Of a DNA stretch of 28,757 bases, positions 1,473 through 10,553 are shown piece after piece (position 1 is the first letter of the stretch; each line of letters begins with the position of its first letter). A program made the translations under genes and the position numbers. Origin of the DNA: an uncultured Methanosarcinales archaeon (GTDB lineage: Archaea; Nanobdellota; Nanobdellia; Woesearchaeales; UBA11576); the NCBI GenBank assembly GCA_964572875.1, contig CAZNGE010000008.1:5753-34509 (forward strand), read 5' to 3'. The notes below the pieces were generated by a model. That model searched no databases, was not told where the DNA came from, and worked only from the letters and a program-made list of their open reading frames with translations.

Positions 1473-4400
1473 CTATTCATCCCTGTCATTGCGGGAGCGG
1501 TTCTTAAGTATGGCCTCTGCTATTTTTAAGGGATCATCAGTCCCGAATTTGGCAGCCAATGGATCTATAGGTTTCATTGGCTTGGCCGCTTCCTTGGGCT
1601 TCTGCAGCGGAGCAGGCTTCTGCATGGGTCTCTGCACAGCAGGTCTTGCAGGCGCAGTAGGTGCTGCTGATGCTGGCGCTGCAGGCTTTGGCCTGATCAG
1701 CTCAACAACGACCTTTCTTGCAGGCGGTGCAACAGTCCTTGGAGGAGGAGCGGCAGCAGGTCTTGCTGGCCGGGCAGCAGGTTTTGTTATTGTAGTAGGT
1801 TTAGTGCTTGGTTTGATTATCTGTCTTGTGAGTGTAGCAGGTCTGGTTACAGGTCTTGCAGCAGGTTTAGTGATTGGTCTGGCGATAGTTTTCGGTGCAA
1901 TCGGTTTCACTGCCTGGACCGGCGGTTTCACTGCAGGTTTAGATGCGGGCGCTGTATCTTTCTTCACAGGTTTCTGCAACTGTTCCTGCACAGGTTTTGC
2001 AGGAGGTTTCTCCTCTTTCTTTGTCTGTTCCACCTTTATGTTGAGTCTGTCTATCTCTTGTGTTATCCCCTCGAACATCTGCTGCGGCTTCTCATCGCTT
2101 GTTGCGCCTGAATCAAGCTCTACCTTTATCTCTTTGAGCTGTTTCTTCCTCTTGGCAGACCATTTTATCTTCTGTATGGCATACCCTGCCCAGTATTTTG
2201 ATTTGGAGTAGTACTGCTCAAGGCCTTGCAGGTCAGGCATTCCGCGTGTCACTGCGACATACGCGAATCCGCCGACCATTAGCACGGAAACTATTATGAT
2301 GAGCAACGCTCCGGATATGCCTGTTGTATCCACCATGCTGCTGACTGCCCTGCCTGTCACCTCAGGCACATTGAAAGTGACTATCAGCATGAATACTATT
2401 GATATTATCAGCAGCACGTGCACTGCAGTGATTATCTTCTTCATCCTGTAAGACAGCTTGGCCTTGTGGAGCGCGATGACTGCTACCAGCAGCACGAGCA
2501 TCAGTATGAGCGGCATTATGTAGAGCGGGTTAGGGGGCTCGTATGGCTGCACGGTTATTGCCTCTCCTGTCAGCAGGTTCCTCCTGGCCAGTTCTTCAAG
2601 CTCTTGCGGCGTACAGTCCCTGCAGCTGCCTCCGCAATCCACTCCTGTCTCATTGTTGTTCATCTTCCCGTCGGTGCAGAAGTCATAGTAGCACGGCTGC
2701 ACTGTCTCTGGTTTCCTGTTGTCTGTGCCGCATCGTCCAAGGTCGTTGCACGCCCTTGTCTGGACTCCTGCCTCTGAGCACTTGCCCCAGTCCTCGCATG
2801 CCCATCTCTCTGCGCAGCCTGAGACGCACACCCTCTCTGTAGCAGGCTTGTCTGTATCGTTGTTGCACGCGTTGGCGTCGAAGCATGCCCTGCTCTGGAA
2901 ATTGTTTTCGCACGGTCCCCATGAGTAGCAGAGCCAGTTAGGCGCGCACGCCTCTTCCTGCCTGGCAGAGCCGCCTCCTCCTCCGCCTCCTCCTCCGCCT
3001 CCGCCCGGAGAGCCGCAGCTTCCGCAGTCGAGCGCGCATGAGCCGCAGGTCTCGACGCCGTTGCAGCTTCCGTCGCCGCAGTATGGCCCTTCCTCGACAG
3101 AGTAGTTGGTGAAGTGTGTCACATTGAAGATGAATGTCCCGCCTGAATAGTTTATCTGCGCGCACACAGAACTGCTGCACACGCTTCCGTCGACCATTAT
3201 TCTTGGAGACGTGAAGTTGATTCCGTATAGTGTTATGTTTGCGGACTTGTTGAACTCAGGCAATGCAGATGAGCTTATGTGCGCATAGTCCTGCCCGATA
3301 CGTACATATGTATCGAGGTCAAGGCAGCGGGTGATGGTTATGTTTTCTGTGAATTCTATCTTTCCATATGCCATATTATCGAGCACGACATCCTGTAGGT
3401 CGGATAGGTCATTTCCGGTCAGGTTGGTAGTATCGCCATAGAAGCTTGTGCTCACGACGCAGTCGCAGCTGACTATAGTGTTGTTGTCTGTCGGCGTGGT
3501 ATAGTTGGTCCCGCAGCCGGCAGTGTCATTATATGTCTTGACTCTTGTGTCATTCAGGTTGCATGCTGAGTATGCTGCTACCCAGTTCTCATTGCATGCG
3601 AATGATGTCCTTTCAGTGTCATTCACCCACGCTCCTTTGGTCCCTGATGTGTCGACAGGCCTTATCGAGATGGTGTATAGTGTGGAGTGATTCAGCCCGG
3701 TGGCATAATAATACTCGTTTGCGGTGCTTGTCTTGTACGCGCCGTTCAGCCATACCTCTGCGCGGTAGAAGTCGCTGTCTGTCGGGTTGGTCCATACCCA
3801 GTATAGGTAGTTCTGTCCTTTGTTGAGCAGCAGGAGGTCCGTCACAGATCCTGGCGGTATCGTGTCATCGACTGTCAGCCAGTATGTCTGTCTGCTTGAT
3901 GAGTGGTTCTGCGTCTCTGGATAATACGCTGTGATGTTGTACACTGCTTCCGCATCATATGCTGACAGGTCAGAGACTGTTGTCCCTGACCCGAGGAGAG
4001 CTCCGTTCCTGTACAGCTGCATCGGCCCGGTTCCTGTCACCCTTATGGCTGTAAGGTTTGCGGCAGTCGTCCTTTCTATGGTCATGTTTGATGAGGTGCC
4101 GTTTAGCAGGAGACTGACCACTGATGCTGCCTTGCTTGTTGTGAAGTTCCGTGTTTCTGTGGTTTCATACCCTGTGCTGTCGTTTGCGTACGCCGTGATC
4201 GTGAAGCTGCCGAAGCCTATGCTAGGCACTTCCACCGGGTCATTGAACTTGTAGGACGTCGTGTTGAGATTGATGGTGCTGTTGGATTGTACAATATCTC
4301 CTGTGCTGTTTGTTATGTTGTACACGACCGTACTCAGTTCATCATCCTGATATGTTATGTTGAGGTTGAAGCCTGAACTCCAGTCAGTGCCGCTTGCAGG

Positions 4401-10553: not shown

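What the first reader, a model, noticed from the sequence alone, without database searches (positions are those of the whole stretch)
1473..10553. 9-kb gene for a 3026-aa glycosylated surface protein anchored in the membrane at both ends
The predicted layout is unusual. An N-terminal cytoplasmic stretch and signal-anchor TM are followed by ~2700 aa of extracellular Ig-like repeats, a LamG/concanavalin-like lectin-type domain, a Gly13 linker and three WxCxxWGxC...RAC cysteine modules. Three TM helices and a ~200-aa proline/alanine/lysine-rich cytoplasmic tail follow. The many NxS/T sequons imply heavy N-glycosylation. The protein is co-transcribed with a pilin-like protein and a small membrane protein. 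It is a candidate adhesin or S-layer-associated scaffold, and the cytoplasmic PAK tail may couple it to an intracellular partner.
Basis: partly seen in the sequence, partly recalled or inferred. Interest (0 to 1): 0.55.

Follow-up and report, generated by a model that had tools for sequence, protein, structure and literature searches.

The report
Self-cleaving giant archaeal surface protein
The 9-kb gene is real and encodes a giant, sugar-coated surface protein of a tiny DPANN archaeon. Near its membrane end sits a domain related to the self-cutting module of the eukaryotic nuclear-pore protein Nup98, with the cut-site motif intact, so the protein probably splits itself into two membrane-held halves.

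Summary
The ORF (1473..10553, minus strand, 3026 aa) is intact. An identical protein sits on an independent assembly, and orthologues are intact in three other Woesearchaeota-type genomes. Hydropathy and charge support one N-terminal and three C-terminal TM helices. NxS/T sequons are 2.3-fold enriched in the ectodomain, and LamG and fn3/Ig modules are present.

Residues 2366-2488 are a Nup98-type (peptidase S59) autoproteolytic domain:
- profile vs PDB gives Nup98 at E 3.7e-5;
- 35 of 40 family members hit PF04096;

Its H2480-F2481|T2482-N-Y2484 motif aligns with Nup98 HF|SKY. The domain family has at least 4,594 clusters, and every named member is a DPANN archaeon. The two WxCxxW modules look thrombospondin-repeat-like.

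The gene lies in a conserved cluster: SpoIIM-like, tandem-HTH, giant, a 223-aa paralogue of the giant's N-domain, and a 155-aa protein. A conserved array of 15-nt direct repeats precedes the cluster.

Self-cleavage is inferred, not shown. "Pilin-like" and "S-layer" are unsupported. The glycine run is 12 residues, not 13.

The parts
1473..10553 (-). Giant ORF, 3026 aa (stop included)
   Evidence: Identical protein on an independent contig. Intact orthologues of 2104, 2262 and >=2603 aa in L006, L007 and L004.
10353..10553 (-). N-terminal cytoplasmic stretch, residues 1-67 (16 K+R)
   Evidence: A ~55-aa equivalent is conserved in the L003, L006 and L007 orthologues and in P0083.
10284..10352 (-). 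TM1, predicted signal anchor (residues 68-90)
   Evidence: Kyte-Doolittle peak 2.42. Charge asymmetry.
8394..10271 (-). Family-specific N-terminal ectodomain region (residues 95-720), with an acidic linker at 186-240 and a Cys-rich insert
   Evidence: Homologues occur only in Woesearchaeota/Nanoarchaeota proteins. Residues ~60-190 are paralogous to the 223-aa neighbour (E 4e-5). No Pfam or PDB match.
7164..8393 (-). Unassigned ectodomain region (residues 721-1130)
   Evidence: Only sub-threshold Pfam hits and no PDB sequence hit. Absent from the L006 orthologue.
6456..6908 (-). LamG / concanavalin-like domain (residues 1216-1366)
   Evidence: PF13385, E 1.8e-29, 103 bits against a cut-off of 27.6.
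3636..6329 (-). fn3 - Ig-like/Big_7-like array - fn3 (residues 1409-2306)
   Evidence: Weak fn3 and Big_7 hits. Internal repeats: 1409-1491~2223-2306, 1591-1686~1672-1767, 1741-1857~2123-2237, 1941-2029~2037-2128.
3465..3596 (-). Degenerate Cys/Trp module before the APD (residues 2320-2363)
3090..3458 (-). Nup98-type (S59) autoproteolytic-domain homologue (residues 2366-2488)
3108..3116 (-). H2480-F2481-T2482; predicted scissile bond is F2481|T2482
   Evidence: Aligns with Nup98 HF|S(A)KY. Position. Family statistics.
3015..3089 (-). GPYCGDGSCNGVETCGSCALDCGSC cysteine knot motif (residues 2489-2513)
2970..3005 (-). Gly12 linker (residues 2517-2528)
2691..2948 (-). Two CxxxWxCxxWxxC...QxRxCxDxxxC...C modules (2536-2576, 2580-2621) with a TSR-like predicted fold
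2613..2678 (-). CxDGxxNxxExGxDCGGxCxxC motif (residues 2626-2647)
   Evidence: The same motif is seen in P0094 and P0101.
2244..2537 (-). TM2-TM4 bundle (residues 2673-2770)
   Evidence: Conserved in P0001, P0003, P0004, L004, L006 and L007.
1476..2243 (-). Cytoplasmic tail (residues 2771-3026): basic juxtamembrane YYSKSKYWAGYAIQ, a P/A/K-rich stretch, and a ...DDPLKIAEAILK end
10550..11014 (-). 154-aa protein with two sigma-70 region-4-like HTH repeats; its stop overlaps the giant's ATG
   Evidence: PF08281, 1.7e-6. Orthologues sit directly upstream of the giant gene in L003, L006 and L007. Overlap seen.
11104..11315 (-). Array of six direct 15-nt repeats, ACAYACANNGTARGA; candidate operator
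   Evidence: 6 copies against 0.01 expected. The same array lies upstream of the orthologous HTH genes in L003 (8 copies), L006 (6) and L007 (2), and in none of the 72 other loci.
742..1428 (-). 223/228-aa membrane protein, a paralogue of the giant's N-terminal module (likely start is ATG at 1413)
272..745 (-). 155-157-aa N-terminally anchored protein; its start overlaps the stop of the previous gene
11379..12344 (-). SpoIIM-family membrane protein, syntenic upstream neighbour
   Evidence: PF01944, 4.3e-12. Conserved upstream in L002, L003 and L006.

Best explanation
This is the central gene of a conserved Woesearchaeota (DPANN) surface-protein cluster.

Predicted layout. The protein inserts with its first 67 residues and TM1 in the cytoplasmic membrane. 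It exposes about 2,580 heavily sequon-decorated residues: family-specific N-domains, LamG, and an fn3/Ig array. It returns to the membrane through three TM helices and ends in a basic cytoplasmic tail.

The new domain. About 190 residues before TM2 lies a beta-sandwich homologous to the Nup98/Nup145N autoproteolytic domain (peptidase family S59). It carries the complete H-F-T-x-Y site.

Inferred mechanism. T2482 attacks the F2481 carbonyl (N-O acyl shift) and the ester is hydrolysed. This gives a 2,481-aa N-terminal fragment held by TM1. It also gives a 545-aa C-terminal fragment: the TNYSVEE strand, a Cys knot, the Gly12 hinge, two TSR-like modules, three TMs and the tail. The two fragments would stay joined non-covalently because the new N-terminal strand remains docked in the domain. 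Nup98-Nup96, GAIN-domain receptors and ZU5/FIIND proteins behave this way. The ectodomain most likely serves host or substrate attachment, and the cleaved joint would act as a breakable or force-sensitive link.

Regulation. The tandem-HTH protein encoded just upstream probably controls the cluster through the 15-nt repeat array.

Shown: the ORF, the layout, domain homology, motif conservation, synteny and the repeat array. Inferred: glycosylation, cleavage, adhesion and regulation.
For: - ORF intact and independently assembled. Orthologues intact in L006, L007 and L004.
- Topology: hydropathy and positive-inside counts. All but one of the sequons lie in the predicted ectodomain, and they are 2.3-fold enriched.
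- Site conservation over 458 domain copies: -1 is F/W in 99%, +1 is S/T in 98% (this position was unconstrained in the search), and +3 is Y/F in 99%.
- Variable -2 (H/S/G/Q) is tolerated in proven autoproteolytic relatives. Nup98 H862A/Q cleaves almost normally and CARD8 uses SF|S (PMC3210808).
- Thr is the residue mutated at this site in C. thermophilum Nup145N (PDB 5hb6 title, T994A mutant).
- The post-site residues NYSVEE are modelled as a strand of the sandwich at high confidence.
- All four orthologues keep FNVTHFTNYSV.EGPYCGD.
- Cluster synteny in five genomes.
- Repeat array conserved in four genomes.
- DPANN LamG/Ig giant proteins are proposed host-attachment factors (PMC10266531).
Against: - No experiment or proteomic datum shows cleavage. 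The H-x-S/T motif alone is not sufficient in GAIN domains (PMC13062082).
- This protein's own PF04096 score (24.5 bits on the isolated domain; 13.8 in the full-length scan) is below Pfam's 28.4 cut-off.
- The same domain occurs up to 11 times in other DPANN giants, with the motif kept in internal copies and no enrichment of His in the membrane-proximal copy. This fits a structural module at least as well as serial self-cutting.
- Some eukaryotic members of the fold, such as Nup116, are listed only as binding domains.
- TM1 could be a cleaved signal peptide. No dedicated predictor was available.
- N-glycosylation is inferred from sequon density only.
- A TATA-like element in the 59-nt gap after the giant gene means co-transcription of the downstream genes is unproven.
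Confidence: 0.6

Rival explanations
1. The APD-like domain is a non-catalytic structural or docking beta-sandwich. It would be comparable to the non-cleaving Nup116/Nup100 C-terminal domains. The conserved F-S/T-x-Y strand would be needed only for folding, and the protein would stay one covalent chain looped between its two membrane anchors.
For: - The domain is repeated up to 11 times inside single DPANN giants, interleaved with beta-helix units, and the motif is kept in internal copies.
- His at -2 is present in only about a third of copies and is not enriched in the last copy.
- The motif is not sufficient for cleavage in GAIN domains.
- Nup116 domains are among the best structural matches.
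Against: - The +1 position is S/T in 98% of 458 copies while its neighbours vary. This is the nucleophile position in every autoproteolytic relative.
- This protein and all its orthologues carry the full HF-T-x-Y site.
- The -2 His is dispensable in Nup98, and CARD8 uses Ser there.
Confidence: 0.3
2. TM1 is a cleavable Sec signal peptide. The mature protein would then be anchored only by the C-terminal TM bundle, as in a type-I-like giant adhesin, and not at both ends.
For: - Many DPANN proteins with this domain start with a short basic stretch plus one hydrophobic helix that looks like a signal peptide (P0003, P0005, P0089).
- Nanohaloarchaeal giants are described with Sec signal peptides.
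Against: - Here the helix is preceded by 67 residues with 16 K+R. A ~55-residue equivalent is conserved in four orthologues, which is unusually long for a signal-peptide n-region.
- The start codon is fixed by the ATGA overlap with the upstream gene.
Confidence: 0.15
3. The protein is an S-layer or S-layer-associated scaffold rather than an adhesin or receptor-like molecule.
For: It is large, sequon-rich and membrane-anchored, features shared with archaeal S-layer glycoproteins (established knowledge; for the sequons).
Against: - No S-layer family matched in Pfam or NCBIfam.
- The middle of the protein, including LamG, is gained and lost between orthologues. This is typical of variable adhesins, not lattice-forming proteins.
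- Multiple paralogues occur per locus (L002).
Confidence: 0.08
4. The long ORF is an assembly or annotation artefact, or a pseudogene.
For: In one related MAG (L003/L005) the orthologue is split into 2561 + 874 aa by a frameshift inside an Ig repeat.
Against: - The reading frame in the window is uninterrupted.
- The identical protein occurs in a second assembly.
- No long DNA repeats are present.
- Orthologues in L006, L007 and L004 are intact.
Confidence: 0.02

Closest known systems
Nup98 / Nup145N autoproteolytic domain (MEROPS S59, Pfam PF04096)
   Same: - Detectable sequence-profile similarity.
- The H-F-S/T-x-Y site sits at the same C-terminal position, with the following residues forming a strand of the domain.
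   Different: - The host is archaeal and the location is extracellular and next to the membrane, not at a nuclear pore. There are no FG repeats.
- It is embedded in a giant adhesin-like protein.
- The family is hugely expanded and often multi-copy in DPANN.
- His at -2 is frequently replaced.
- Cleavage is untested.
GAIN domain of adhesion GPCRs / polycystins, and ZU5-FIIND domains (PIDD, UNC5, CARD8, NLRP1)
   Same: - Working analogy: a self-cleaving beta-sandwich placed between a large adhesive ectodomain and a TM bundle, with the two fragments staying associated.
- Same N-O acyl-shift chemistry.
   Different: - Lower structural scores than to the nucleoporin APDs.
- No GPS Cys pattern, and 3 TMs rather than 7 or 11.
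- The N-terminal fragment here has its own membrane anchor.
Giant membrane-anchored surface proteins of DPANN archaea (nanohaloarchaeal 'SPEARE' proteins; LamG/PKD surface proteins)
   Same: DPANN origin, giant size, an N-terminal hydrophobic segment, Ig/fn3/LamG content, C-terminal TM plus cytoplasmic part, and a presumed role in host attachment (PMC10266531).
   Different: - No VirB4/TraG-like ATPase domain or other cytoplasmic enzyme.
- No detectable sequence relationship was tested or seen.
- This family has the APD, TSR-like modules and its own conserved HTH/paralogue operon.
Thrombospondin type-1 repeat (TSR)
   Same: - The predicted fold of the CxxxWxCxxWxxC...RxC module matches TSRs of semaphorin-5A, complement C6-C9, MIC2, thrombospondin-1 and properdin.
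- Trp/Arg/six-Cys composition.
   Different: - No significant Pfam TSP1 or PDB sequence match.
- The Cys spacing differs from WSxWSxCSxxCG.

Membership tests
Peptidase S59 / Nup98-type autoproteolytic domain (PF04096) | APD beta-sandwich fold | tested here: met
   [not shown]
Peptidase S59 / Nup98-type autoproteolytic domain (PF04096) | Sequence match to the family model above the curated threshold | tested here: inconclusive
   This protein scores 24.5 bits (E 3.4e-5) on the isolated domain, below the 28.4 cut-off. 35/40 homologues hit PF04096, best 1.4e-12. The family profile hits Nup98 in PDB at 3.7e-5.
Peptidase S59 / Nup98-type autoproteolytic domain (PF04096) | H-F-S/T site with a buried Phe at -1, a hydroxyl nucleophile at +1 and an aromatic at +3, at the C-terminal end of the domain | tested here: met
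   T2479-H-F-T-N-Y-S2485 aligns with Nup98 SHF(S/A)KYG. Conserved in orthologues. Family frequencies.
Peptidase S59 / Nup98-type autoproteolytic domain (PF04096) | Actual self-cleavage and non-covalent retention of the C-terminal fragment | not testable with these tools
   Needs expression with mutagenesis, or proteomics.
Peptidase S59 / Nup98-type autoproteolytic domain (PF04096) | Nucleoporin context (FG repeats, nuclear-pore targeting) | tested here: not met
   Archaeal genome context with extracellular placement between the fn3 array and TM helices.
GAIN domain / adhesion GPCR | GAIN fold with GPS motif followed by a 7TM domain | tested here: not met
   [not shown]
Laminin G / concanavalin-like lectin (PF13385) | Match above the gathering threshold | tested here: met
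   103.3 bits against 27.6, covering the full model 1-151.
Thrombospondin type-1 repeat | TSR fold and TSP1 sequence signature | tested here: inconclusive
   [not shown]
Archaeal type IV pilin (claimed for the 223-aa neighbour) | Class III signal peptide ([KR]-[GA] cleavage site before the hydrophobic helix) or a pilin family match | tested here: not met
   No Pfam, NCBIfam or PADLOC hit. The N-termini of three orthologues (..TKNKLLMIE....KNKHTWHQIE..) lack G/A at -1 (by inspection only). It is a paralogue of the giant's N-module.
Archaeal S-layer protein | S-layer family domain | tested here: not met
   No such family was found in Pfam or NCBIfam scans.
Nanohaloarchaeal SPEARE-type giant proteins | Cytoplasmic VirB4/TraG-like ATPase domain after the TM region | tested here: not met
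   The tail has no Pfam match and is a low-complexity P/A/K region. The family description comes from PMC10266531.

The most novel reading that the evidence does not exclude
The DPANN domain is a catalytically active, extracellular branch of the Nup98 autopeptidase family. Two consequences would follow:
- Double-anchored giants such as this one would be split into two membrane-held subunits joined by a breakable strand-in-sandwich joint, an archaeal counterpart of GAIN/SEA-type mechanosensitive junctions.
- The multi-copy giants (up to 11 domains) would be self-processing polyproteins that assemble non-covalent head-to-tail chains on the cell surface.

The size and divergence of the archaeal family (at least 4,594 clusters at 50% identity) would make it a candidate prokaryotic source of the nuclear-pore autoproteolytic domain.
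Probability: 0.25. Interest if true: 0.85.

Novelty: new variant of a known kind. Interest (0 to 1): 0.62.

Why it matters
Giant LamG/Ig surface proteins are already suspected to mediate DPANN-host attachment, so the protein class is not new. Three things are new.

1. A Nup98-type self-cleaving domain appears to be a standard building block of DPANN surface proteins, with thousands of clusters. Six of the seven full-text searches asked about such a link in prokaryotes, and none returned a paper describing it.

2. This gives a concrete, testable processing step for these adhesins: cleavage at F2481|T2482.

3. It offers a prokaryotic relative for a nuclear-pore component whose origin is unclear.

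The conserved operon and its 15-nt repeat array also provide a handle on how such surface proteins are regulated in organisms that cannot yet be grown.

Tried and rejected
- The full-length homology search timed out. Only segments were searched.
- NCBIfam found nothing for the giant protein.
- PADLOC found nothing for the operon proteins, so this is not a known defence system.
- Pfam and PDB sequence searches of residues 95-1130 and of the tail gave only sub-threshold noise: GH114_assoc, Nucleoporin_N, DUF5818, Hom_end.
- The 155-aa neighbour shows no similarity to the giant.
- The Cys-module profile has no PDB or Pfam sequence relative.
- A genome-collection scan with exact peptide patterns from this protein found nothing, and alignment A1 was too diverse for that tool. 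A narrower alignment worked.
- I tested whether His at -2 marks only the membrane-proximal copy in multi-copy proteins. It does not.
- The sigma-70 promoter and terminator scan is not meaningful for an archaeon and was ignored.
- Papers by Mans et al. 2004 and Sun & Guo 2008 were not held. Statements about other catalytic residues of Nup98 were therefore not used.
- Assembly artefact was rejected.
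Full report
**1. The observation**

The window holds one uninterrupted ORF on the minus strand, 1473..10553, 3026 codons plus stop. Exactly the same protein is encoded on an independently assembled contig, Logan SRR9700626_188301. At the DNA level the gene has no long near-identical repeats. The only features are one weak 53-nt family and short arrays, including the GGx run. 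Collapse or frameshift by mis-assembly is therefore unlikely.

Orthologous genes are single intact ORFs of 2104 aa (L006), 2262 aa (L007) and at least 2603 aa (L004, cut by the locus edge). In one related MAG (L003/L005) the orthologue is split 2561 + 874 aa by a frameshift inside an Ig repeat. That is the exception.

**2. Layout**

- Hydropathy gives four TM-like segments: 68-90, 2673-2695, 2705-2727 and 2747-2770.
- Charge distribution follows the positive-inside rule for N-in / ectodomain-out / tail-in. There are 16 K+R in residues 1-67 and 1 in the 30 residues after TM1. The TM2-TM3 loop is HKAKLSYRMKK. The TM3-TM4 loop has 1 K/R, and the first 40 tail residues have 10.
- 98 of 99 NxS/T sequons lie in the predicted ectodomain, against 42.5 +/- 5.6 expected from shuffling it.
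- Pfam finds Laminin_G_3 at 1216-1366 (E 1.8e-29) and weak fn3 and Big_7 matches.
- Self-comparison shows duplicated fn3 and Ig-type modules between 1409 and 2306.
- Residues 95-1130 match no Pfam family or solved structure by sequence.
- The tail is P/A/K-rich.

- The glycine run is 12 residues.
- Only two canonical WxCxxW modules follow it. A degenerate one lies further upstream, and a different CxDG...DCGGxC motif follows them.
- The Ig-like repeats span about 900 residues, not 2,700.

**3. Organism and family**

Homologues of the C-terminal 727 residues are all from DPANN archaea where a name is given: Woesearchaeota, Nanoarchaeota, Pacearchaeota and Micrarchaeota. The few Patescibacteria hits involve only the short CGDG motif. 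P0003 (1180 aa) is a miniature of the same architecture. The N-terminal region has only a handful of relatives, all of them Woesearchaeota or Nanoarchaeota where a source name is given.

**4.

A weak PF04096 hit (Nup98-96 autopeptidase S59) at residues 2377-2442 led me to the conserved ...FNVTHFTNYS... strand. It resembles the Nup98 HF|S cleavage site. I collected the corresponding ~130-residue domain from 40 homologues (A1). Three independent tests agree.

- Profile against all PDB sequences: the only significant matches are nucleoporin autoproteolytic domains (Nup98 2q5x 3.7e-5, Nup116 3nf5 5.8e-5, Nup145N). A second aligned stretch places 'sGgtlifnVthFsnYs' on Nup98 'ETGSWVFKVSHFAKYGLQ'.
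- Pfam: 35 of the 40 members individually hit PF04096, best 1.4e-12. This protein's isolated domain gives 3.4e-5 and 24.5 bits, just under the 28.4 cut-off.

The site in this protein is T2479-H2480-F2481-T2482-N2483-Y2484-S2485. The residues after the predicted scissile bond (NYSVEE) are modelled as a strand of the sandwich.

**5. Is the site under selection?**

The profile finds 4,594 clusters (50% identity representatives) at E <= 1e-3 and 892 at E <= 1e-30. In 458 domain copies the residue frequencies are:

| Position | Residues |
|---|---|
| -1 | F 84% / W 15% |
| +1 (left free in the pattern) | T 68% / S 30% |
| +3 | Y 88% / F 11% |
| -2 | H 35% / S 24% / G 22% / Q 9% |

The literature shows that this pattern is compatible with catalysis:
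- In Nup98 the buried Phe and the Ser nucleophile are essential, whereas H862A/Q barely affects cleavage.
- CARD8 and NLRP1 cleave at SF|S (PMC3210808).
- The C. thermophilum Nup145N entry 5hb6 is a 'T994A mutant', so Thr occupies the corresponding site there.

There are also cautions:
- In GAIN domains the H-x-S/T motif alone does not guarantee cleavage (PMC13062082).
- Many DPANN giants carry several copies, up to 11 in P0089 and 8 HFT-type copies in P0090. These are interleaved with beta-helix units.
- His is not enriched in the membrane-proximal copy.

A purely structural role therefore remains a serious rival.

**6. Other modules**

Among 202 proteins with the APD-like domain, 142 have a TM after the last copy, 136 have an N-terminal hydrophobic helix, and 100 have both. 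The 'both ends' layout is thus common in this class.

**7. Genomic context**

The order SpoIIM-family protein, tandem-HTH protein, giant, 223-aa protein, 155-aa protein is conserved.
- In L003/L005, L006 and L007, neighbour proteins are 49-75% identical to the window's.
- L004 keeps the giant, 223-aa and 155-aa genes. Its upstream side is cut off.
- L002/L008 keep the order in a rearranged form, with a second 1456-aa paralogue.

Further details:
- The HTH gene's stop overlaps the giant's ATG (ATGA).
- The 223-aa gene follows after 59 nt that contain a TATA-like TTTTTATATA. The 155-aa gene's start overlaps the preceding stop.
- The 223-aa protein is not pilin-like. It matches no family. It is a paralogue of the giant's own N-terminal TM plus first ectodomain module.
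- The 364-bp region upstream of the HTH gene carries six same-strand copies of ACAYACANNGTARGA, against 0.01 expected in the window.
- The same motif forms arrays upstream of the orthologous HTH genes in L003 (8 copies, five at a 22-nt period), L006 (6) and L007 (2 in the 230 nt available). It occurs in none of the other 72 loci. This is a strong candidate operator for the HTH protein.

**8. Mechanism proposed**

Shown: a double-anchored, sequon-rich ectodomain; an S59-type domain with a complete site next to the C-terminal TM bundle; and a conserved operon with an operator-like array.

Inferred:
- T2482 performs an N-O acyl shift on the F2481 carbonyl.
- Hydrolysis yields a TM1-anchored 2,481-aa fragment and a 545-aa fragment with three TMs and the tail.
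- The two remain joined by the docked TNYSVEE strand.
- The ectodomain binds host or environmental glycans or proteins through LamG and Ig modules.
- The cleaved joint acts as a breakable or force-sensitive link, as proposed for GAIN and SEA junctions.

I estimate about 0.9 for domain homology, about 0.55-0.6 for actual cleavage, and about 0.85 for surface location.

**9. Comparison with the known, and novelty**

Giant DPANN surface proteins with LamG/Ig domains are known and are linked to host attachment (PMC10266531). This protein lacks the VirB4-like ATPase described there and belongs to a different family.

Of seven full-text searches, six asked about prokaryotic, archaeal or DPANN occurrences of the Nup98 autopeptidase (or PF04096). 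None returned a paper describing one. However, precomputed PF04096 labels already sit on two database proteins (P0056, P0057), and subscription literature was not searchable. I therefore rate this a new variant of known kinds, not a categorically new one.

**10. Verdict**

The ORF and its layout are real. The adhesin reading is reasonable. The S-layer, pilin and conserved-PAK-tail ideas are not supported. The most interesting content is the Nup98-type domain with an intact cleavage site, its massive expansion in DPANN, and the conserved regulatory array. Interest 0.62.

Noticed in passing
window 11104-11315 (- strand); L003 1569-1793; L006 621-824; L007 2-158: An array of 15-nt direct repeats, ACAYACANNGTARGA (four exact ACATACATAGTAAGA in the window), sits upstream of the tandem-HTH gene. 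It is conserved in four genomes, partly at a 22-nt period. It is a candidate operator. 22-bp iteron-like arrays can also mark replication origins, but no replication gene was seen nearby.
   Followed up: partly
window ~1436-1445 (- strand), in the 59-nt gap between the giant's TAG stop and the 223-aa gene: A TATA-like TTTTTATATA about 30 nt upstream of the ATG, followed by GGAGGTG. The two downstream genes may have their own promoter rather than being strictly co-transcribed.
   Followed up: no
giant residues ~88-95, 170-183, 2655-2666 and 2731-2740; also the 223-aa protein and many homologues (P0003, P0005, P0089, P0101): A short motif of the type [IL]TG.[AV][IV] (for example GITAWIVGG, LLTGEAITV, EVTGRAVS, ITGYAI, ITGMAI) recurs just outside predicted TM helices in these DPANN surface proteins. 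Its meaning is unknown.
   Followed up: no
P0089 (5257 aa), P0090 (4299 aa), P0102 (7646 aa) and others: DPANN giants are built of up to 11 units of parallel beta-helix plus APD-like domain, each ending in F-S/T-x-Y. Some have an N-terminal subtilase. They end in one WxCxxW module, TM helices and a K-rich tail.
   Followed up: partly
L003 2319-12625 (= L005): The orthologous giant gene in Woesearchaeota MAG GCA_043819495.1 is split into 2561 + 874 aa by a frameshift inside an Ig repeat (ATGA overlap). This is either a sequencing error or a pseudogene/fission.
   Followed up: partly
L002 12196-16566 and 16645-17280: In the Nanoarchaeota locus a second 1456-aa paralogue of the giant, sharing its N-domains and fn3, follows the 207-aa gene. 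It is itself followed by another tandem-HTH gene, which suggests duplication of the whole module.
   Followed up: no
window 13753-17850 (+ strand): A divergently oriented cluster: a 795-aa protein with no family match and a coiled-coil-like segment, a 470-aa AAA+ ATPase whose best defence-library hit is IetA/IteA (86 bits, far below NCBIfam's cut-off), and an 87-aa ORF. It could be a defence or proteostasis module.
   Followed up: no
window 18721-21263 (+ strand): A transglutaminase-core protein (526 aa) is translationally coupled to an SPFH/Band-7 protein (321 aa). Several AsnC/Lrp-type HTH genes (17902-18417, 21941-22429, 26873-27883, 28261-28707) are scattered through the right half of the window.
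   Followed up: no
locus titles: Many GTDB representative contigs that carry HFT-type APDs are titled 'uncultured Methanosarcinales archaeon' (binchicken TPA assemblies). Their gene content resembles the Woesearchaeota loci (for example L007, which has the full operon). These titles are probably placeholder or wrong taxonomic labels.
   Followed up: no
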